Positions 5,715 through 37,732 of a stretch of DNA of 64,000 bases are shown piece by piece. This stretch comes from Escherichia phage vB_EcoM-ZQ3: the sequence record MW630116.1. One strand, given 5' to 3'. Made by a program: the position numbers and the translations under genes. Position 1 is the first letter of the stretch; each line of letters begins with the position of its first letter. The notes under the pieces are model-generated. The model searched no databases and was not told where the DNA came from. It was given only the letters and a program-made list of their open reading frames with translations.

Positions 5715-7163
5715 TTAAGCTGTAGGAAGTTCAACCCATGCACCGTCTTTGCGAACATAGAATTTACCGTCTGAAGGAGCATCTTCAATATATCCAGCTT
5801 CCTTAAGAGTTTGGATTTCAGCTTCTGCGGCGGCCAAATCAGTTTCAAGAGTAGCAATTCTAGAAGTTAAACCATTAATTGTCGTATCGTGACTTTTAAC
5901 TGTAGGCAATATACCACGTTCTTCAACAGTCGAACCATTTGGGTTGGTGCCGTTTATAAGAGTATTTAATGTGTTTACAGAACCCTTAATCCCTGTGGTA
6001 TTAGTCCCAACATCAGTTTGAATGTTCTGAATGTCATTACTCATCTCACCGATAGATCCTTCAAGCGCTCGAGTACGATAAAGCAAAGAGCCGGCTGGTT
6101 CCGGTTTCCCACCTGAAGCGTCAACACCAACTACGTTATTTAACCATGACACATTAAAACGCAATCCTGACGAAGAATCAGAGCCGACAACAGTGTTCAA
6201 TGCTCCGATAGCATCAGTATTGAGTTTAATACGTCCTTGGATTGTAGTAGGCAAATCATCGGTGCCAATGGCAGTTTCTACTGTAGTCAAACGAGGTTTA
6301 ATACCACCTGATTGATTGAGCTCAAGATTAATGTCGTTTATTGCTGAACTATTCGCATTAGTTGTAGTAATAATAGAAGTCGTATTAGGATACCCAATAG
6401 ACTGTTTAATGCCATCTAAGTCAGCATTTTGACGCGACAAAGTTAAATCAATACCGGAAAGACGACTAAATACTGGAGTAGTGAAAGAAGTGCGAGGTCC
6501 CATTTCTTCGCGTAAGTGTTCGACTTCATTAGTTAAAGAGCCGACGTCAGAATCAGCAAATTTAGTTTCTAGATCAGTTAATCGAACACCGTGGTCAACA
6601 ATCACGGAGCTATTAGTCATAATACGGCGTTTCATACCAGTGCTATCATTTCCTGGAGTAGGAACCCCATTAATATCTTGACCAGTATATTGTCCTAATT
6701 CATTTTTAATCCAAAGCAGGTCGTTACGAACGGTTCTATAAACTGAATCTGTTTCCTGATTATAAACACCAATATCATCAGTATTCGCATCAATATGTTC
6801 ATTCAAATCATTCAATTCACTAGCATGGGTTTGAACTGTGACTTTAATGACATCAATATCTTGGGTGTTCTGACCAATCTGTGCAAGTGCTTCGACGTCC
6901 CCGGAAACATCTAAAATACCTTGAATAACTTTTATATCTTCATTGGCTGTATTCAAAGAAGATGCTATAGTTTTAATATTAGTATCTAACGCTTCTACGT
7001 TACGTTGAACTTCAACAATAGGACGGTTCATTACACCTTCAGAACCGTATTTTGTATCAGCACCGGTAATTTCTTCGTCGTTTTTAATCCATTCAATACG
7101 ACTCTGACCCGCGTCTGGCGGGCCGTCAACATATGGTAAATCTACCAGAGTTATATCAGCCAT
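5715..7163 (-). CDS. wac: Fibritin (whisker protein, wac)
   Basis: 482 aa coiled-coil protein; conserved N-terminus and C-terminal foldon-like GYIEDAPSDGKFYVRKDGAWVEL. Confidence 0.88.
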   Translation of the reverse strand: MADITLVDLPYVDGPPDAGQSRIEWIKNDEEITGADTKYGSEGVMNRPIVEVQRNVEALDTNIKTIASSLNTANEDIKVIQGILDVSGDVEALAQIGQNTQDIDVIKVTVQTHASELNDLNEHIDANTDDIGVYNQETDSVYRTVRNDLLWIKNELGQYTGQDINGVPTPGNDSTGMKRRIMTNSSVIVDHGVRLTDLETKFADSDVGSLTNEVEHLREEMGPRTSFTTPVFSRLSGIDLTLSRQNADLDGIKQSIGYPNTTSIITTTNANSSAINDINLELNQSGGIKPRLTTVETAIGTDDLPTTIQGRIKLNTDAIGALNTVVGSDSSSGLRFNVSWLNNVVGVDASGGKPEPAGSLLYRTRALEGSIGEMSNDIQNIQTDVGTNTTGIKGSVNTLNTLINGTNPNGSTVEERGILPTVKSHDTTINGLTSRIATLETDLAAAEAEIQTLKEAGYIEDAPSDGKFYVRKDGAWVELPTA

Positions 7164-8746
7164 TATTTTACCTTAATAATATAGTTTAAAGAAATATTCC
7201 ATGGACGAGTTTCATTTCCAATTAATTCTGGACGATTCATGGTATATTTAGAGTTACGCTGAGACGCTGGATCAATTTCATATCCTTCGTTAGTAAAATA
7301 TGAACGGTTATCCCAGTCAAGTCCTTTACGAGTACCAACAAAGTTTGAACGACGAGTATTACCAAATGCACCGGAATCATTGTGTTCGCCAAAACCACCA
7401 GCATGTTTATGATATGACATCTGTTGTTTTTGCACTTCACCGACATATCCACCAGTACAACCAACTCCTAAACGAGGTTTACCAAATTGGTCATTACCAT
7501 TAACATTAGGGTTAGTTAAATGTGTACCACGACCTGAGCCGCGAACAAATAATCCACGCATATCAGGCAAGCCCGGGTTAGAAGAGCTACCACCATATCG
7601 TGTCCCAATTCTGGAAGCATATACCGGACATTCTGAAGCAGAAACGGTCCCACCGTGACAGAAGCGCCAGTCAGAACTCGGTAAACTATCTGCAGCCCAC
7701 ATTGTAATAGAGCCAACAGGAAGAATTCGGTCTAATTCATTTTGAGTCACAATACGATTGCCTTGAATATAACCACCAGTCATATTGACATTACCAGTTA
7801 TATTAGCTCCACCAGAACCAACCGTCAACGTATTATTAATGCGAAGCGTGCCGTTAATAGTTTGTCCACCTCGTTGGTGGATAACATCAGCATTCCAAGC
7901 AAGGGCAGAAGAACCATCACCACCTGATTGGCTACCAGCTTGTGTAGTTAAACGAACAACTCCACGTAAAGAAGTTGTAGCCCCACGCCCGTTTAATGTT
8001 GCGCCTGTCACTACAGCTGAAGAGTTGTTACTATTTACTTCAGTCTGTGTCCCTAGTTTAACGACGCCTTTATTAGTTTCTGATGCTACTGAATTCATAA
8101 AGGTATAAGGTGAAATTGCATAGCCTTCACGCAGGGTGCCTTGTTGTGCTTGAGCAACTGTAGCCAAACGAACAACACCTGTAATAGATTCGGTGGCGTC
8201 ACTATTATTTGGAGCAATTTGTGAAATAAGTTTAATTGCTAATTGTTGCGTTTTTAACGGAGTCATTGCCGTTGTATCGTCAGAACCAGCTAATGCCGCA
8301 GCAGAAGTTGAAATTTTAATTACACCATTTGTTGCTTCTGTTGACACTTTTGTCTGAAATACATTGTCTATTTTTTGATTCAATTTAAGCGGAGTAATTG
8401 ATGCATCGTCAATAGCTCCGGTTACTGCTTCATCTTCAGTAGCATAACGAGTTAAACCATATTGTGTTTCGGTTGCATTAGGATATTGTAGACGAGCATT
8501 CAGTGTTGCCGGAGTAACAGCTTTACTATTATCTAATCCATCAATAACTTCTTGTGGAGTAGCTATTTGAATAATTCCTGGTGTAGTAGTTGTTGCTTCC
8601 GGTACGCCATTAACACCTGAAGGAGAAATAGCAGCTAATGCGGCTTGGACATTAGTGACTGTATCTGGAAAATTCGACCCCGTAGGGTCGAATTCAACGT
8701 AAACGGATTCGTTTGAAACGTGTTGGTATGTATTGTTATTACTCAT
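7163..8746 (-). CDS. 12: Short tail fibre protein gp12
   Basis: 527 aa; T4 gp12-like including the conserved C-terminal receptor-binding region. Confidence 0.9.
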
Positions 8747-25038: not shown

Positions 25039-25724
<686 letters not shown>

Positions 25725-28000: not shown

Positions 28001-28072
28001 TGGTGCATCGTATAAAGGTTATTACGGGGAGCTGTTAACTCCTTTATCTTGGTTCGAGTCCAAGTGCGCCAG
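28001..28072 (+). tRNA. tRNA-Asn (GUU anticodon), no encoded CCA
   Basis: Acceptor TGGTGCA/TGCGCCA, anticodon stem GGGAG/CTCCT with loop CTGTTAA, T-arm CTTGG-TTCGAGT-CCAAG; 6 nt after the previous tRNA. Confidence 0.7.
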
Positions 28073-28136: not shown

Positions 28137-28146
28137 ATAATTGGTA

Positions 28147-28812
28147 ATGAGCATTTGTAAACATTGTAATATGGAATTTGATATTTCTAATAAACCTAAA
28201 GGATGGATGGCTAACCACACTAGATGGTGTAAATCCAACCCTAAATTGGAATTGTATAAAGAAAGTTCTAAATCAGCCATTGCAGCAATGAATAAAGCAC
28301 GTATAGCTTCAGGTAATTTAAACCAGTATGTTGTATCTAAAAAGACTGGTGTCCCTGTAGTAATTTCGGAAGAGACTAGACAAAAATTGTCAGCCGCTTC
28401 ATTAGGTAGAGAACACTCTGAGGAATCTAGAATAAAAATATCTAATGCTCGGAAAAAATGGTTGAATGAAAACCCTGATAAACATCCTTGGAAGAAAAAT
28501 ACAAAATTTAAATCTGTGCCTTGTGAATTTTTGAAATCTAAATTAATAGAAAACGGAATTTCATTTATTGAAGAATACCAACCGGTTAAAAACCGAGCGT
28601 ATTGCACGGATATTGCTTTAATAGATAAAAAGATTATTATTGAAGTTAATGGAAACCAACATTACTCCAATCCTAAGAAAAAGATTTTGGCCCCTTATTA
28701 TAAAGAACGCCATGATATTATAAAATCATTAGGATGGGAAATATATGAACTTCATTATGCTGAAGTTTATAAAGAAGATATTGTAAATAATTTAATTGCC
28801 TCTATAGTGTAA
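28147..28812 (+). CDS. Putative free-standing homing endonuclease (N-terminal Cys/His motif, NUMOD3-like repeats, C-terminal Vsr/DUF559-like nuclease motif)
   Basis: CKHCN...HTRWC; ETRQKLSAASLGREHSEESRIKISNARKKW; C-terminal D..IIIEVNGNQHY..RHD...LGWEI; sits between tRNA genes and overlaps tRNA-Arg by 15 nt; no GIY-YIG motif. Confidence 0.6.
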   Translation: MSICKHCNMEFDISNKPKGWMANHTRWCKSNPKLELYKESSKSAIAAMNKARIASGNLNQYVVSKKTGVPVVISEETRQKLSAASLGREHSEESRIKISNARKKWLNENPDKHPWKKNTKFKSVPCEFLKSKLIENGISFIEEYQPVKNRAYCTDIALIDKKIIIEVNGNQHYSNPKKKILAPYYKERHDIIKSLGWEIYELHYAEVYKEDIVNNLIASIV

Positions 28813-28873
28813 TGGATAGCATATAATCGTTCTAAGGTTAATGGTGAGAGTTCAAATCTTTCTAGAGGCACCA
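28798..28873 (+). tRNA. tRNA-Arg (UCU anticodon), CCA encoded
   Basis: Acceptor GCCTCTA/TAGAGGC, D-stem GTGT/GCAT, anticodon loop GTTCTAA, T-arm GAGAG-TTCAAAT-CTTTC, discriminator A plus CCA. Confidence 0.8.
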
Positions 28874-31854: not shown

Positions 31855-32277
31855 ATGCGAAACCAAAATAATGATATTGACTCAATGTTCGAAGAGTTCC
31901 GAAATAAGGTAAATCCACCTACGTCTTTAGTTGATTCATTACGATATGTTGCAACTGGACGTAAATGGTACTGGTCGTCTTCTTATGAGACAACTGAATA
32001 TGCAAATAACCGAAAATCTTTATTAGCCCCAGGTATTATGATTCATGATATCGGAGCTATTGCTAAACTAGTTGCGGACCATGATATTAGATTCACTGAT
32101 TTCGTTGCTCCTACGTGGTCTGTTTGTTGTTTAAACACTGAATGGGACTATATCAGTGAACGCTCTGAAGATTATTATGGTTTTAGAGATAAGCTCTTAA
32201 GGTCTAACATGTTTTATATCGATACTGAAGTTCTAGTCGATAATAAAATATTACTTTACGTTAATCGTCGATTCTGA
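31855..32277 (+). CDS. Hypothetical protein
   Basis: 140 aa from ATG after AGGAG. Confidence 0.5.
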   Translation: MRNQNNDIDSMFEEFRNKVNPPTSLVDSLRYVATGRKWYWSSSYETTEYANNRKSLLAPGIMIHDIGAIAKLVADHDIRFTDFVAPTWSVCCLNTEWDYISERSEDYYGFRDKLLRSNMFYIDTEVLVDNKILLYVNRRF

Positions 32278-32417
32278 AACTATGTATGAAGGCAAGCCTT
32301 TGCTTAAAAGAGTTGATGCTTTAAGTGCTATTGATGCGCTTTATGAAACCATGGTTGTTAGTCCTAATTTCACTAACAATTTAATCCTTGAGCAATTTAT
32401 TATGGAATGTAGAGAAT

Positions 32418-32813
32418 ATGTCAAAGCCAACCCTATACATGCCAATTAAGCCCTGGGCATACGAATACAAACGTAAATTAATCCCAAACGAAGTACTATT
32501 TGGCCCTATTTTAGCTTTAGCGTTTTTAATCTTTATGATTATAGGAGCTGTTTTAGATTCCAATAAAGTTATATCGTCTGATGCAGCGTTTTCATTAATG
32601 TTCGTCGCACCACTTATTGTACCATTTTTATTAATGCCTATTAATTGGGCAGGATATTGGCACCAAGGCCGTCATCACAGAGCTCGAGTTCGTGAGTGGA
32701 AAGTTCAGTGCGCAAAAGCCCAAGCTCAGTATGATGAAGCTGTTAAAAAGTATGAATACGAAGAAGCTATGGAATTCGTTAAGGAAATAAGATGCAAAAG
32801 CCTCAACTCTTAA
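32418..32813 (+). CDS. Predicted membrane protein
   Basis: 132 aa with two hydrophobic segments. Confidence 0.5.
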   Translation: MSKPTLYMPIKPWAYEYKRKLIPNEVLFGPILALAFLIFMIIGAVLDSNKVISSDAAFSLMFVAPLIVPFLLMPINWAGYWHQGRHHRARVREWKVQCAKAQAQYDEAVKKYEYEEAMEFVKEIRCKSLNS

Positions 32814-33043
32814 CCGTATGGCCGTCTCTTGGTGAGAACATTCTAATTTTTATTATGAGTATTGGCATGGGATTTGCCTTTGGATTAGTTGGATTTCTTA
32901 TTGACGGCGTTGTGTTAGGATTTATAGGGAACACTGGTGGATTCACAGACCAATGGCAGGACCTAAGATACACCCAAGCCTTTGCATCTATCGCATCATT
33001 TTGTACTGTAAGTCTATTTTTACTACGATTTTATAAACCATAA
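32792..33043 (+). CDS. Predicted membrane protein
   Basis: 83 aa, hydrophobic; overlaps the upstream gene. Confidence 0.45.
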   Translation: MQKPQLLTVWPSLGENILIFIMSIGMGFAFGLVGFLIDGVVLGFIGNTGGFTDQWQDLRYTQAFASIASFCTVSLFLLRFYKP

Positions 33044-33148
33044 CAAGAAAAATAAAAAGGTTTACGCTTCTCAAATGATTAGTTATAATGAACTCCTAGC
33101 TAGACGTGAAAATGAAACAATAGAAAACTTTATTAAGGAATGTAGAAA

Positions 33149-33454
33149 ATGAGTAAGATTATTGAAATTAAAGTACCAGAGTTTAATGATGCTAAATCCG
33201 CTTCAGATGCAATTTATAAACTTCTGAATCAAGCTGAACGTATCGAAGAAGAAGCAACAAAGATCGCAGACCAATATGCCGTATCATTTTCTGTAGGTGA
33301 TTATGGTAGTGGTCGTACTTATTATCCTAAGGGTGAAATTGTATCCCAGTGGATGAAAGATGAAATTGAAAATAATGGTGGTGATGTTAAACGTGAAGGT
33401 AATGGTTACGTTATTACTGAAGGTGCTTGGGTTTCGTCTTCTTCGATGTGCTAA
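33149..33454 (+). CDS. Small protein, member 1 of a tandem paralogous triplet (C-terminal GAWVSSSSMC)
   Basis: 101 aa; shares the helical N-terminus and C-terminal G-W-[VI]-[SA]-S-S-x-x-C tail with the next two ORFs. Confidence 0.55.
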   Translation: MSKIIEIKVPEFNDAKSASDAIYKLLNQAERIEEEATKIADQYAVSFSVGDYGSGRTYYPKGEIVSQWMKDEIENNGGDVKREGNGYVITEGAWVSSSSMC

Positions 33455-33463
33455 GGAATCATT

Positions 33464-33736
33464 ATGTCTAAAGAACAAACCGAACTGGCTGAAGCCGTAG
33501 CAAAAATCTATGCAGCTATTGAGGCTGCCAAAGAAATTGCTGATAAACAAAACACAACATTCGACTTGTATCCGGCTTATGGTATGGGTGGAACCTATCA
33601 TTCACCCGGACAACTTAAAGCCGATCTTGAACGTTGTACAAAAAACGGCTATGCTGAATGGGCTGACGTTTACCAATACGACTACAACCTGAGCCTCGAA
33701 ACTGGTGGTTGGATTGCATCTTCTCATACTTGCTAA
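33464..33736 (+). CDS. Small protein, member 2 of the triplet (C-terminal GGWIASSHTC)
   Basis: 90 aa; similar intergenic spacer gctaaggaa..atg. Confidence 0.55.
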   Translation: MSKEQTELAEAVAKIYAAIEAAKEIADKQNTTFDLYPAYGMGGTYHSPGQLKADLERCTKNGYAEWADVYQYDYNLSLETGGWIASSHTC

Positions 33737-33745
33737 GGAAACCAT

Positions 33746-33943
33746 ATGTCTCGTGAATTAGATTGTGCTGTACGTACCGCAGTAGCTGCTCTGGAAAACC
33801 TGTTCCAAATTGCAACAGAAGAACGCGAAGAAGTTACATTGTGGATTGAAGATAACGCAGGTCTGAATCTCCAGGACGCGATCTCATTATCCAATAATAG
33901 CATTACTGTTCAAGGCTGGGTATCATCTAGTTATTCTTGCTAA
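33746..33943 (+). CDS. Small protein, member 3 of the triplet (C-terminal QGWVSSSYSC)
   Basis: 65 aa. Confidence 0.55.
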   Translation: MSRELDCAVRTAVAALENLFQIATEEREEVTLWIEDNAGLNLQDAISLSNNSITVQGWVSSSYSC

Positions 33944-34005
33944 AACAGTTTACAACAAGATAGGGCTATGTTATAGTAGTCCTATCAAATTAAATGGAGT
34001 CCACA

Positions 34006-34245
34006 ATGATTTATTACGAAAGTATCGGAACCAAAGTGGTTGGTAAAACCATTACTCGTGAAAAGTTTGCAAAGATATTCGATATGCGTTATAAAAAATC
34101 TGAACACAAAGGCATCCGATTCGAAGATGCACATTGTACAATTTGCCCTTATAATGAAGATATAAATGGTACAATCGTTCCATTGGTAGAGGCTTCACAT
34201 GACGACCTCTGGGATGAATATAATATCGCATGTCGCGAAATTTAA
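34006..34245 (+). CDS. Hypothetical protein
   Basis: ATGGAG...ATG arrangement: the first ATG supplies GGAG as SD for the second; 79 aa. Confidence 0.45.
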   Translation: MIYYESIGTKVVGKTITREKFAKIFDMRYKKSEHKGIRFEDAHCTICPYNEDINGTIVPLVEASHDDLWDEYNIACREI

Positions 34246-34270
34246 GTAATCTAAATTCGAGGAAATTATT

Positions 34271-35227
34271 ATGATGTTAGTTATTGGTTCTCGTGCACTT
34301 CACTATCACGGTCTTATTGATTCTAACGCTATCAAAAATAGTGACTGGGACTTTATTGCAGACCAAGGTTCTTGGAATGCATTCAAAAATCAAATGATGG
34401 GTGTATATGTTCATCAAGATAACCCTGATGTCCAAGTTTTCAAATGCTTCCATAACGGACGCGAAACTCATTTTGAAGCATATATTGTTCCGGCAATCAC
34501 TAATGTCCGTGAACTAGTCGGTGAACTCACTCCTGAAGATTTCACGTCTTCTTATGACCTTTTAAAATACGCCAAGAAAAATTTGACTAAAGACCGTTTG
34601 AACGGGTTTTACTGGGCAACTCCTGAGATGTGCCTTGCAATTAAGATGTCTCATCGTTTCAAGAAAAATAATCCATTCTTTTTAAAGACTATGAACCATA
34701 TTCAGTATCTTCGTGGTAAAGGTGTTAAACTGAATGATGAACTTACTGAAATTATGCTGAAACGTCAGAAAGAAACCTTGAACTATGCTCACCCAGTTCT
34801 TGACACTTCTAAAAGTGCGTTCTTTAAAGATGACATCTATACATATGACCATGATACTATTCATGAAGCCATTGCACTAACAGACCGTCCAGCATATACA
34901 TTTTATATGAAAGACGGTTCTGAAGTCATGACCTCACGCGAGAAGTTCGAATCGTTACCAGAAATGGTCAAATTGGCCGGTGTATATGAAGAATCATGTG
35001 TACTAGCATTAGAACGTTCTCAGATTCCTAATGGCTTTGAAATCCATCCTCGTGATAGTTTTATGATGGCATTAGAAAAGGTCTGTACTTCAATCACATC
35101 AGGCTGGTTCCGTGAGTATGCCTGGGAGAACTACAGCAAAGTAGTAAGTATGTACCAAAGCTTAGGACATGATGATTACGTCAAACGTTTCAAACAAAAT
35201 TTCCATATGGTAAAACCTTTCAAATAA
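34271..35227 (+). CDS. Hypothetical protein, possible nucleotidyltransferase fold (weak)
   Basis: 318 aa; N-terminal IGSRAL...SDWDF loosely fits the G[GS]...D-x-D signature but with longer spacing than usual. Confidence 0.45.
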   Translation: MMLVIGSRALHYHGLIDSNAIKNSDWDFIADQGSWNAFKNQMMGVYVHQDNPDVQVFKCFHNGRETHFEAYIVPAITNVRELVGELTPEDFTSSYDLLKYAKKNLTKDRLNGFYWATPEMCLAIKMSHRFKKNNPFFLKTMNHIQYLRGKGVKLNDELTEIMLKRQKETLNYAHPVLDTSKSAFFKDDIYTYDHDTIHEAIALTDRPAYTFYMKDGSEVMTSREKFESLPEMVKLAGVYEESCVLALERSQIPNGFEIHPRDSFMMALEKVCTSITSGWFREYAWENYSKVVSMYQSLGHDDYVKRFKQNFHMVKPFK

Positions 35228-35306
35228 TTTCACCAAACTGTTTACAAGGTCTGTAGTTGTTGATACTATAGACCTATCAAAACAAATGAGTGAATGGAGA
35301 TACAAA

Positions 35307-35507
35307 ATGACTACTTTGAATAAACGTTTCGGTAAAGCTAAACCTGGCTGTGCAGCAGAACGTCGTTACATTTTCGCTCAGTTAGAAGATGTAGAGTATC
35401 AGATTAATCAAGTTCACATTACTGGCATCGAGCCTATGTGTGGCCTTGAAGCTCTTCGTGAAGTTCGTGACGGGTATCGTCGTGATATCGAAGAAATGTC
35501 AAAATAA
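35307..35507 (+). CDS. Hypothetical protein
   Basis: 66 aa from the second ATG of an ATGGAG...ATG arrangement. Confidence 0.45.
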   Translation: MTTLNKRFGKAKPGCAAERRYIFAQLEDVEYQINQVHITGIEPMCGLEALREVRDGYRRDIEEMSK

Positions 35508-35565
35508 GTGTACAAACTGATAGGGCTATGTTATAGTAGTCCTATTAAAACATGAGGAGAATAAT

Positions 35566-35871
35566 ATGAAATTAACAGAAACCAACCGAATTGGCCTTTT
35601 AACGATACTTACATCACCTTTTTATGCTGTGCTTTCTGTTGCAGTATTACAAAAGGCCTATGGCATGGACGGTGTTCCTGGTTGTGTATTTTTATCACCG
35701 TTTTTGTTATTAGTTGGTGCTCTGTTATTATACGCGACAACAGGTTTCGACCATAATGTTTGGGTCAAGTTTAAACGTAGATTAACTGAAGAAGAACACG
35801 CTGAAGCTCGTAAAAAAGCTATTGAATCTACCAATCTAGAAAATTTCATTAAAGAATGTCGAGGAAAATAA
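35566..35871 (+). CDS. Predicted membrane protein ending in the NFIKECR module
   Basis: 101 aa with two hydrophobic helices; C-terminal ...LENFIKECRGK. Confidence 0.5.
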   Translation: MKLTETNRIGLLTILTSPFYAVLSVAVLQKAYGMDGVPGCVFLSPFLLLVGALLLYATTGFDHNVWVKFKRRLTEEEHAEARKKAIESTNLENFIKECRGK

Positions 35872-35872
35872 T

Positions 35873-36559
35873 ATGAATAGTTCTAAAGTGTTTAATAGTC
35901 AAGCTCGTGCAGTAGGTGGTTTTGCTCATGCGATTAAAAATGACCAGATTAAAAACGAGCCTATGTTCTTCAACTGTAGTTTAGAATTTGCTTATAATAA
36001 CGGTGGTCCTATTACTCGCAGCTTCATCATGAACTTGCCTGATGATTGGAACACCGACCAGGTTGTATTTGATTCACGGGTCCACATGCTGATGCCTGGT
36101 TGGTACCCTGCTATCCCGGGTTATCACCATGATGATGTACCACGCCCGGATATTCCGGTTGGTCAACACTTTATTACTGCAGGACAACCTGATTATGACA
36201 ATCCTCGCTATTTGTCTGAACATATTCTTGGTCTTGTTAACGCTGATGTGTGTCCTACTCATTTTGCAACAGGAACTGCAGAGTTCAGTCAGATTCCTGA
36301 TGGCGAACTTATCTATCGCCAGTGGCACAAAGAAGTCCTCGAAAAAATTGAAAAAGGTGAACTAGAGAAATGGGAAGCTCCAGATCGTACTCTTCTTCAG
36401 TTTGATTGGCAAACATGGCACACTGGTTCTCGTGCAATTAGTAATGGATGGCGTTGGTTCGGACGTGTATCTCGTAATACAGACCGAGTTAAAAAGATTA
36501 CCAATGAAATTCGTGTCAATGCTCAAGTTTATCTGGAATTCCCTATGGAAGGCTGGTAA
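35873..36559 (+). CDS. Hypothetical protein
   Basis: 228 aa; His/Asp-rich segment (HHDDVP); no family assigned. Confidence 0.5.
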   Translation: MNSSKVFNSQARAVGGFAHAIKNDQIKNEPMFFNCSLEFAYNNGGPITRSFIMNLPDDWNTDQVVFDSRVHMLMPGWYPAIPGYHHDDVPRPDIPVGQHFITAGQPDYDNPRYLSEHILGLVNADVCPTHFATGTAEFSQIPDGELIYRQWHKEVLEKIEKGELEKWEAPDRTLLQFDWQTWHTGSRAISNGWRWFGRVSRNTDRVKKITNEIRVNAQVYLEFPMEGW

Positions 36560-36652
36560 TGATTAACAAAACATATTGGTCTTAATATAGACGATGGCAA
36601 CGAAGGTATTTCATACTATTCAGTAGATTGGACAGGATGTCCATCCTACTTA

Positions 36653-36964
36653 GTGAAACATATTTGCCAAGAATTTAAAATCGACCAGCCAGCAGGTATT
36701 ATCGTGAACAGATACATTAATGGATATCAACCTATCGATGAAGTAATACGAACAACTCAAGCTGAGCTTGAAAAGTTTTTCAATAAGTGCCAATGGATAA
36801 CAGGATGGATTATATTTGTACCGTCTATATGGTTTTTCAGTACTAAGGTGAGTTCTTTCGGTTTTGTTGATATTATTGCTATCTTATTAGCATCTAGTAT
36901 CATAAGTGTTGTTGGTGGCATCATTGGCGGCGGTACCGCCGCCATCATTATTAAATCTTATTAA
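36653..36964 (+). CDS. Predicted membrane protein with C-terminal glycine zipper; start codon uncertain
   Basis: ORF has no in-frame ATG (GTG at 36653); C-terminal VVGGIIGGGTAAIII. Confidence 0.35.
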   Translation: MKHICQEFKIDQPAGIIVNRYINGYQPIDEVIRTTQAELEKFFNKCQWITGWIIFVPSIWFFSTKVSSFGFVDIIAILLASSIISVVGGIIGGGTAAIIIKSY

Positions 36965-37048: not shown

Positions 37049-37285
37049 ATGAGTATAGCAATTTACATTAAATCAGAATCATGTGATAGTTATCTGTACA
37101 CATACGATAAAGACGTGTCAGAAGAAAAAATCAAAGACGATCTTAATATGGACCTTGATATGTTCTGTCCTATTGCAGATTACAAACTTGCGGTCTCTAA
37201 TAGTGAAAGTCCATCTAAAGAAACGCGCATTGAAGAATTTATGTCCGAATTAATGGCTAAATCATGGGACCGAGATGATGAGTAA
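37049..37285 (+). CDS. Hypothetical acidic protein
   Basis: 78 aa; ATG overlaps the stop of a short upstream reading frame. Confidence 0.45.
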   Translation: MSIAIYIKSESCDSYLYTYDKDVSEEKIKDDLNMDLDMFCPIADYKLAVSNSESPSKETRIEEFMSELMAKSWDRDDE

Positions 37286-37732
37286 GAAAAATAAAGTGAA
37301 AGAACTATCAGCCGGTATTATTTTCCTTACCGAAGATAAAGAATTATTCATGGGGCGTGTAACTGGTTCTCGTCCTAAAGGTTCTTTAGCTCATCGGTGG
37401 GATATTCCTAAAGGACGTGTCGAGCCCGCCGAATCTCCTATTGAAGCCGCTATTCGCGAATGCGAAGAAGAAACTGGGTTTACACAATATGACCTGCCTT
37501 CCTGAAAGACCTAGGTGAACATCATTACTCAGACAATAAGAATATTCATCTGTTCCTATATACCATCCCTGTAGAGCACGAGCAATTCAGAAACAGTGTT
37601 TGTAATTCCTATCATACATTCCCAGACGGACGACAGATTCCTGAATTTGATGCATTCGCTTTAATTAAACCTTCTCAATGGGAATATGTAATGGGCAAAT
37701 CATTATATAAGGTGCTCACTACCCTCCTATAA
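37275..37732 (+). pseudogene. nudE: Nudix hydrolase (nudE / e.1 homolog) split by a -1 frameshift
   Basis: Frame A 37275..37505 carries the Nudix box GRVEPAESPIEAAIRECEEETG then stops; the homolog continues in the -1 frame 37499..37732 (LKDLGEHHYSD...); summed length about 153 aa, like T4 NudE. Confidence 0.6.

What the first reader, a model, noticed from the sequence alone, without database searches (positions are those of the whole stretch)
34271..35227. Second possible nucleotidyltransferase-fold protein in the tRNA-e interval
The 318-aa ORF starts MMLVIGSRALHYHGLIDSNAIKNSDWDF, a weaker and longer-spaced version of the NTase G[GS]...D-x-D motif. It lies in a run of unassigned genes (31855..36964) that also contains the paralog triplet and several membrane proteins.
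Basis: inference. Interest (0 to 1): 0.4.

Follow-up and report, generated by a model that had tools for sequence, protein, structure and literature searches.

The report
Phage nucleotidyltransferase with small-protein partners
The 318-aa gene very probably encodes a working nucleotide-transferring enzyme of a phage-only family, and it is inherited together with one to six small acidic proteins that all end in the same Trp-x-Ser-Ser-x-x-Cys tail, a two-part module nobody has described.

Summary

New result: the 'paralog triplet' upstream (33149..33943) belongs to the same module. In 86 of 93 loci (23 of 26 lineages), 1-6 small acidic ORFs ending in W-x-S-S-x-x-C-stop lie within 3 kb upstream on the same strand. 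Four of four reverse look-ups found the NTase downstream. Only short-form NTases lack them.

Best reading (about 0.35): the enzyme transfers a nucleotide onto the Ser-rich tail. Main rival (about 0.3): a MenT-like RNA-end NTase with the small proteins as inhibitors or adaptors. tRNA linkage, RlaP, HD domain and the arabinosylation pathway were tested and rejected.

The parts
34271..35227 (+). NTase gene, 318 aa (RB69ORF134c ortholog, 96.9% identical)
   Evidence: ORF; Pfam DUF7277 (E 1e-27) + DUF7275 (E 7.5e-79); PHROG 2141; RB69 ortholog
34271..34585 (+). N-terminal domain (res 1-105): Pol-beta nucleotidyltransferase core
34286..34291 (+). codons G6-S7 (hG[GS] motif)
   Evidence: G 262/263, S 258/263 in 266 homologs
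34343..34351 (+). codons D25-W-D27 (metal-binding [DE]h[DE]h motif)
   Evidence: D25 260 (+2 E), D27 263/263
34475..34477 (+). codon E69 (third catalytic carboxylate, on a beta-strand)
   Evidence: E 245 + D 14 of 263; strand 64-73 in model
34586..35227 (+). C-terminal all-helical domain (res 106-318, DUF7275). The first ~65 residues resemble the MenT C-lobe; the rest has no solved relative.
34643..34669 (+). codons K125-N133 (KMSHRFKKN): invariant K125/H128, candidate NTP-binding/catalytic Lys; R129 and K132 are specific to long forms
   Evidence: Spacing D27->K125 = 98 against D41->K137 = 96 in MenT1 (PMC10435456); equivalence is inferred
34850..34864 (+). codons H194-D195-T-I-H198, invariant His/Asp cluster
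   Evidence: 265/265 each; kept in short forms
34988..35017 (+). codons E240-E241...E248-R249, invariant acidic/Arg cluster
   Evidence: kept in short forms
35084..35113 (+). codons C272-R281 (CTSITSGWFR): C272, W279 and R281 conserved only in long forms, the ones that have partners
33149..33454 (+). small acidic partner protein 1 (101 aa, pI 4.6), tail WVSSSSMC at 33428-33451
   Evidence: PHROG 899
33464..33736 (+). small acidic partner protein 2 (90 aa, pI 4.7), YGMGG motif, tail WIASSHTC at 33710-33733
   Evidence: PHROG 899
33746..33943 (+). small acidic partner protein 3 (65 aa, pI 4.05), tail WVSSSYSC at 33917-33940
   Evidence: PHROG 4882
33994..34245 (+). intervening 83-aa gene (RB69ORF135c ortholog, PHROG 3723), role unknown, not conserved outside close relatives
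33061..33089 (+). sigma-70-like promoter match (TTTACG-17-TATAAT) ahead of the small-gene array
   Evidence: consensus match only
33949..33977 (+). sigma-70-like promoter match (TTTACA-17-TATAGT, TG extended) ahead of the 83-aa gene and the NTase
   Evidence: consensus match only
34259..34263 (+). Shine-Dalgarno GAGGA, 7 nt before the ATG

Best explanation
The gene encodes a catalytically active Pol-beta-fold nucleotidyltransferase. It has a minimal MenT/ANT-like core joined to a family-specific, basic, all-helical domain. It is the enzyme half of a phage-restricted two-part module. The other half is the array of small acidic proteins encoded just upstream, three in this window, whose only invariant feature is the C-terminal tail G-x-W-x-S-S-x-x-C. 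Proposed mechanism (inferred): D25, D27 and E69 hold two Mg2+ ions and an NTP. K125 and neighbouring basic residues of the helical domain hold the triphosphate. The nucleophile-rich tail of a small protein docks in the cleft between the two domains, against the long-form-specific residues R129, K132, H174, C272, W279 and R281. A tail Ser hydroxyl then attacks the alpha-phosphate, so the small protein becomes O-nucleotidylylated. The variable acidic bodies of the small proteins would be the effectors (host-factor binders or decoys made early in infection), and the shared tail would be the handle for one common modifying enzyme. Shown here: the fold, the conservation of catalytic residues, and the two-way genomic linkage. 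Inferred: enzyme activity, tail docking, and the acceptor being Ser.
Against: There is no direct evidence that a protein is the acceptor. The closest structural neighbours act on tRNA 3' ends (MenT1/3/4) or on small molecules (ANT(2''), LnuA), not on proteins. Short forms without any partner keep the whole catalytic set and most C-domain invariants, so the enzyme has some partner-independent substrate, at least in those phages. A small gene upstream of an NTase is also the MenA1-MenT1 toxin-antitoxin layout (PMC10435456). I could not inspect model coordinates or run a complex prediction, so tail docking is untested. Seven of 93 loci have no motif ORF within 3 kb. The tail regex was refined after seeing the data, although the first detection came from BLAST clustering that made no use of the motif.
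Confidence: 0.35

Rival explanations
1. The enzyme is a MenT-like RNA 3'-end nucleotidyltransferase that adds nucleotides to tRNA or other RNA ends, either to shut off host translation or to repair damaged ends. The small upstream proteins are not substrates. They are active-site-directed inhibitors (antitoxin-like, as MenA1 is for MenT1) or adaptors that set timing or target.
Against: There is no Pfam AbiEii/DUF1814 or RlaP match even at E<=10. The MenT motif-IV Asp has no invariant counterpart: positions 139-140 are invariant K and T. tRNA-gene proximity is a lineage effect only, seen in 4 of 51 divergent loci. RNA-ligase or Pnkp neighbours occur in only two lineages. Up to six diversified paralogs sharing one invariant nucleophile-rich tail is unlike known antitoxins.
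Confidence: 0.3
2. The enzyme activates a tail Ser by nucleotidylylation only as a leaving group. The helical domain (invariant His/Asp/Glu, C272) then eliminates NMP to give dehydroalanine, and the terminal Cys adds to it, closing a lanthionine-type S-x-x-C thioether ring. That would make this a new kind of protein or RiPP-like cyclase with several precursor proteins. This is a sub-case of the best explanation.
For: There is a fixed Ser...Cys spacing at the extreme C-terminus, and some members carry a second internal W-x-S-S-x-C copy. There are several diversified 'precursors' per enzyme. The helical domain is unexplained, extremely conserved and rich in His/Asp/Glu/Cys. From my own knowledge: lanthipeptide synthetases activate Ser/Thr by phosphorylation or glutamylation before elimination.
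Against: No lyase or LanC-like cyclase fold was detected. No NTase-based dehydration is known. The partners are 60-150-aa folded proteins rather than peptides. The argument rests purely on the motif.
Confidence: 0.08
3. The enzyme is a small-molecule or nucleotide-directed NTase (ANT/Lnu-like, or one acting on a host metabolite or signal). The small proteins sit next to it only because of shared early regulation or common descent of an accessory block, with no direct interaction.
Against: The linkage survives across lineages whose other neighbours are all different and holds in both directions, which is hard to explain without function. Long-form-specific conserved residues co-vary with partner presence. 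The C-domain is basic, whereas aminoglycoside-binding NTases are acidic (own knowledge).
Confidence: 0.12
4. The protein is a catalytically dead NTase-fold scaffold.
For: No activity has been measured.
Against: All three carboxylates and the G-S motif are near-invariant over 266 sequences and in 31%-identical relatives.
Confidence: 0.03

Closest known systems
MenT1/MenT3/MenT4 toxins (AbiEii, DUF1814) of Mycobacterium tuberculosis
   Different: No Pfam AbiEii match. Canonical D-x-D instead of the MenT [ST]-x-D. No counterpart of the motif-IV Asp. About 140 extra helical residues with their own invariant His/Asp/Glu set. Phage-only. The partners are multi-copy and share a W-x-S-S-x-x-C tail.
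ANT(2'')-Ia (AadB) and LnuA antibiotic nucleotidyltransferases
   Different: No sequence-family match. This protein has a much larger, basic C-domain and a protein partner. There is no antibiotic-resistance context.
RlaP (PF10127; T4 NrdC.11), RNA-ligase-associated Pol-beta NTase
   Same: A phage-borne Pol-beta NTase with an N-terminal NTase domain, a C-terminal helical domain and a conserved cleft between them (PMC12776372).
   Different: PF10127 not matched. The third carboxylate is Glu rather than Asp. No consistent RNA-ligase neighbourhood. The partner is a set of small proteins, not a ligase.
Protein-modifying Pol-beta NTases: MntA-HepT, GlnE/GlnD, CitX/MdcG with their acyl carrier proteins (own knowledge)
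   Same: This is what the best reading works like: an NTase encoded next to, and covalently modifying, a partner protein. CitX/MdcG modify a Ser of a small acidic protein.
   Different: No membership: only a sub-threshold MdcG echo (E 0.016, 1 of 8 members). Different partner families. The modification here is hypothetical.
One-enzyme, many-precursor RiPP systems such as ProcM/prochlorosins (own knowledge)
   Same: Several diversified small gene products share one short conserved element and sit next to a single enzyme gene.
   Different: Here the conserved element is the putative modification site itself, not a leader. The products are folded acidic proteins. No known RiPP enzyme fold is present.

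Membership tests
Pol-beta-like nucleotidyltransferase superfamily (fold level) | hG[GS] between the first strand and the following helix | tested here: met
   V-I-G6-S7 follows strand 2-5 and precedes helix 7-12; G 262/263, S 258
Pol-beta-like nucleotidyltransferase superfamily (fold level) | [DE]h[DE]h on the second strand plus a third carboxylate h[DE]h on a later strand | tested here: met
   D25-W-D27-F at strand 26-31; F-E69-A in strand 64-73
Pol-beta-like nucleotidyltransferase superfamily (fold level) | three-dimensional similarity to solved NTases | tested here: met
Pol-beta-like nucleotidyltransferase superfamily (fold level) | NTP-dependent nucleotidyl transfer | not testable with these tools
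   needs biochemistry
Pfam DUF7277 + DUF7275 / PHROG 2141 | score above the curated cut-off | tested here: met
   97.2 and 264.4 bits against a cut-off of 27; PHROG 2141 E 1.6e-150
MenT / AbiEii (DUF1814, PF08843) | match to the family model | tested here: not met
   no PF08843 hit at E<=1 for the whole protein or at E<=10 for eight N-domains; no PADLOC hit
MenT / AbiEii (DUF1814, PF08843) | motif III Lys in the C-lobe (K137 in MenT1) | tested here: inconclusive
   Invariant K125 at spacing 98 from the D-x-D, against 96 in MenT1. No residue-level structural alignment was available.
MenT / AbiEii (DUF1814, PF08843) | motif IV Asp about 15-22 residues after the Lys (D152 in MenT1) | tested here: not met
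   Positions 139-140 are invariant K and T. The only nearby acid (consensus D143) is H in this protein.
MenT / AbiEii (DUF1814, PF08843) | cognate antitoxin gene and toxicity | tested here: inconclusive
   Small upstream genes exist, but they are multi-copy and unrelated to the known MenA/AbiEi families. Toxicity not testable.
RlaP (PF10127) | match to PF10127 | tested here: not met
   no hit
RlaP (PF10127) | gene neighbourhood with RNA ligase / RNA repair genes | tested here: not met
   Only Streptomyces phage Beuffert (RNA ligase) and Salmonella phage 7t3 (Pnkp) show such neighbours. No conserved RNA-repair neighbour emerged from 94 loci.
HD-domain phosphohydrolase (considered for the C-domain) | HD fold and H...HD...D motif | tested here: not met
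CitX/MdcG holo-ACP synthases | match to the family model | tested here: not met
   MdcG E 0.016, 15.6 bits against a cut-off of 26.5, in 1 of 8 members, over the G-S...D-x-D region only

The most novel reading that the evidence does not exclude
The module is a previously unrecognised protein-modification system of large phages. One NTase either installs a nucleotide on the invariant W-x-S-S-x-x-C tail of a diversifying family of small acidic effector proteins, or uses nucleotidylylation as a leaving group to close a Ser-Cys thioether ring on that tail. The modification would be needed for their activity against host factors or defence systems.
Probability: 0.3. Interest if true: 0.85.

Novelty: new variant of a known kind. 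Interest (0 to 1): 0.6.

Why it matters
The family is large: 733 of 50,697 phage records, 1593 clusters at 50% identity, and hosts from Enterobacteria to Actinobacteria. It occurs in therapeutically used T4-like and Phapecoctavirus phages and in the model phage RB69 (ORF134c). Even so, it is labelled 'hypothetical' almost everywhere, and the held literature says nothing about it. Placing it in the NTase fold with an intact active site turns two DUFs into a testable enzyme. Linking it to the tail-bearing small proteins (PHROG 899/4882, RB69 ORF136c-139c) turns up to four or more unexplained genes per genome into one system with an obvious experiment: co-expression followed by mass spectrometry. 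If the tail is modified, that would add a new kind of phage-encoded post-translational chemistry and a recognisable tag for a hidden class of early effector proteins.

Tried and rejected
1. tRNA linkage (suggested by the 'tRNA-e interval'). ARAGORN on 80 viral loci shows tRNAs within 10 kb in 28 of 29 loci of the >=54%-identity enterobacterial T4-like clade. Only 4 of 51 divergent loci have them, which is about chance. Rejected as functional evidence.
2. Role in RB69 arabinosyl-hydroxycytosine synthesis. That pathway is gp45-55 and uses a Rossmann-type sugar NTase (PMC13326640). Rejected.
4. RlaP identity. PF10127 is not matched.
5. Sequence searches against PDB with the protein, the full profile and an N-domain profile found nothing relevant.
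6. NCBIfam and PADLOC gave nothing.
7. T4 nrdC.3 (308 aa, in a position similar to the Aeromonas-phage copy) is unrelated.
8. The idea that DUF7275 occurs alone was wrong. The 'C-domain only' tblastn hits are short forms that keep the G-S...D-x-D...E core.
9. Cellular homologs: only 5 hits in 185,579 species genomes, all on phage-sized MAG contigs.
10. Literature searches for DUF7275/DUF7277, the PHROG and Pfam ids and RB69ORF139c returned no papers.
11. A DNA-repeat explanation of the conserved tail is rejected by codon diversity.
12. Not done: the rest of the T4 genome beyond 50 kb. Absence from T4 rests on the RB69 annotation, the genus counts and my own knowledge.

Full report
**Observation.** The ORF exists exactly as described: ATG at 34271, stop ending at 35227, + strand, 318 aa, starting MMLVIGSRALHYHGLIDSNAIKNSDWDF. 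A GAGGA ribosome-binding site lies 7 nt upstream. The window is a Mosigvirus (RB69-like Tevenvirinae). The closest records are phiC120 and CEV1 at about 98-99% protein identity, and the RB69 ortholog is RB69ORF134c at 96.9%. The bare G[GS]...D-x-D pattern is not informative on its own, since 7 of 80 long ORFs in the window contain it. Its conservation is informative.

**What the protein is.** Pfam places it in two domains of unknown function, DUF7277 (res 2-101) and DUF7275 (res 120-305), and PHROGs places it in family 2141, 'unknown function'. Sequence searches against PDB, NCBIfam and PADLOC give nothing.

- The family is large: 2203 hits at 90% clustering, 1593 clusters at 50% identity, and 733 phage records. 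These span T4-like phages of enterobacteria, Aeromonas and Acinetobacter, Phapecoctavirus, jumbo phages, and Gordonia, Streptomyces and Vibrio phages.
- It is essentially absent from cellular genomes: 5 hits in 185,579 species, all on phage-sized MAG contigs.
- An AlphaFold2 model built on 70 homologs is confident (pLDDT 91.8, pTM 0.86). It shows strand-G6S7-helix, then a strand carrying D25 and D27, a helix, and further strands of which one carries E69. That is the Pol-beta nucleotidyltransferase core.
- In 266 aligned homologs G6, S7, D25 and D27 are practically invariant, and position 69 is Glu (245) or Asp (14).

A few Acinetobacter-phage records already call it 'putative nucleotidyltransferase'.

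**Distant relatives.** tblastn hits that seemed to cover only the C-domain are short forms of 251-263 aa in Gordonia, Streptomyces and Vibrio phages. They keep the G-S, D-x-D and probably the third carboxylate. They lack a beta-hairpin (about residues 45-61) and an insert (about residues 74-105). The NTase core and DUF7275 therefore always travel together.

**Context.** Named neighbours differ in every lineage: tRNA-e in Mosigvirus, gp41-gp61 in Lazarusvirus, nrdD-nrdC in Tulanevirus, and an early block in Phapecoctavirus. tRNA proximity is inherited synteny within one clade and is at chance level elsewhere.

I then clustered all ORFs of 94 loci against each other and asked which clusters recur near the NTase across lineages. 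One real family stood out: small proteins that include the window's 'paralog triplet'. They all end in G-x-W-x-S-S-x-x-C followed by the stop codon.

- With a regex for that tail, 244 of 262 motif-bearing ORFs in 1.68 Mb lie on the NTase strand and end within 3 kb upstream of it. That zone holds 7.5% of all segments.
- 86 of 93 loci and 23 of 26 lineages (60% identity) are positive.
- Arrays hold one to six paralogs.
- In the 64-kb window the only three motif ORFs are the triplet at 33149..33943.
- In the reverse test, a profile of the small proteins recovered new members. For 4 of 4 looked up (7 places on independent metagenomic contigs), a PF23942+PF23940 gene lies 0.7-2.4 kb downstream.
- Genus counts of the two families in the phage collection run in parallel.
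- The tail is selected at the peptide level: both Ser codon families, both Cys codons and all three stop codons are used.
- The small proteins are acidic (median pI 4.4) with a median length of 86 aa. They belong to PHROG 899/4882 and have no Pfam family. The enzyme's C-domain is basic (pI 8.3).
- The only lineages without partners are the three short forms. The whole Gordonia phage Smoothie genome has no motif ORF.
- Those short forms also lack residues that are otherwise highly conserved and sit beside K125 and in the CTSITSGWFR segment: R129, K132, H174, C272, W279 and R281.

In RB69 the block ORF132c-139c lies between the T4-homologous genes e.2 and e.3 and has no T4 counterpart noted.

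**Mechanism.** What is shown: the fold, an active site under purifying selection, and a two-way, lineage-independent linkage to tail-bearing small proteins.

My best reading, at about 0.35, is that the small proteins are acceptor substrates. The tail docks in the inter-domain cleft and a Ser hydroxyl is nucleotidylylated. This would work like CitX/MdcG on their acyl carrier proteins or MntA on HepT (my own knowledge).

The main rival, at about 0.3, is a MenT-like RNA-end NTase whose small partners are active-site inhibitors or adaptors. It is favoured by the structural neighbours and by the existence of partner-less short forms with a complete catalytic set. It is disfavoured by the failed DUF1814 membership tests and by the multi-copy partners sharing a nucleophile-rich tail.

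Three further readings carry lower weights:
- Ser activation followed by Ser-Cys thioether closure.
- A small-molecule NTase with merely co-located genes.
- A catalytically dead scaffold.

**Comparison and novelty.** The protein is a member of the Pol-beta NTase superfamily at fold level and of DUF7277/DUF7275 at family level. It fails the membership tests for MenT/AbiEii, RlaP, CitX/MdcG and HD domains. The NTase assignment itself is a modest advance. The conserved enzyme-plus-tail-protein module was not found in the searched literature and is best classed as a new variant of a known kind: an NTase with a partner protein.

**Limits.** Structures are predictions, and I could not inspect coordinates or model the complex. 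Small ORFs are predicted genes. The regex was refined after first sight of the data. Lineages are not fully independent. Absence from T4 was tested directly only for 1-50 kb.

Noticed in passing
window 37275..37730: nudE (Nudix hydrolase, T4 e.1) is frameshifted here. The frame-0 ORF stops after 76 aa at 37505, and the rest of the protein (PAFLKDLGEHH...TTLL) continues in another frame. RB69 and phiC120 have intact 151-152-aa genes. This is either a real pseudogene or a sequencing indel.
   Followed up: partly
window 25269..25724: A 151-aa ORF has two H-x-T/S motifs (HSTI, HITL), the signature of LigT-like 2H phosphoesterases (an RNA 2',3'-cyclic phosphate / ligase-related fold).
   Followed up: no
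window 28141..28812: A 223-aa ORF sits inside the tRNA cluster, between tRNA-Asn (28001..28072) and tRNA-Arg (28798..28873). It is positioned like the homing endonuclease genes found in T4-type tRNA regions.
   Followed up: no
L101 (RB69 NC_004928) 7735..8041: In RB69 the ortholog of small protein 1 is annotated as two ORFs (138c and 139c), split by a frameshift. Its tail reads WVSSPALC. This may be a sequencing error of the kind already reported for other RB69 genes.
   Followed up: partly
L058, L059, L084 (about 7 kb downstream of the NTase, opposite strand): These loci have no upstream tail-motif ORF, but they encode a 147-aa protein ending ...GTYAWCSSSMEC about 7 kb away on the other strand. 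It may be a relocated partner.
   Followed up: no
L004 1..1227; L008 1..2163; L095 1..980 and 5889..6362: NAD-salvage genes (NAMPT, a PRPP-synthetase-like gene) and Macro-domain genes recur within a few kb of the module in several unrelated lineages. The NAMPT cluster lies within 10 kb in 7 of 26 lineages. In L095 a Macro gene overlaps the NTase stop.
   Followed up: partly
window 35873..36559: A 228-aa ORF downstream (PHROG 1843, RB69ORF132c) has no Pfam, NCBIfam or PADLOC match. It is conserved only among close relatives.
   Followed up: partly
L026 8693..8923; L080 7551..7775; L040 9709..9954; L082 9432..9677: Some small partner proteins carry the tail motif twice: an internal W-[ND]-S-S-x-C-Y-G-E plus the terminal copy. 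The motif therefore works as a module and does not strictly need the free C-terminus.
   Followed up: partly
L102 40388..41605 and L103 20283..20990 (Gordonia phage Smoothie): The partner-less short-form phage also encodes an RtcB-like RNA ligase (gp74) and a separate annotated nucleotidyltransferase (gp138). Both lie far from the short-form gene (gp16), which itself sits 1.2 kb upstream of a tRNA cluster.
   Followed up: no
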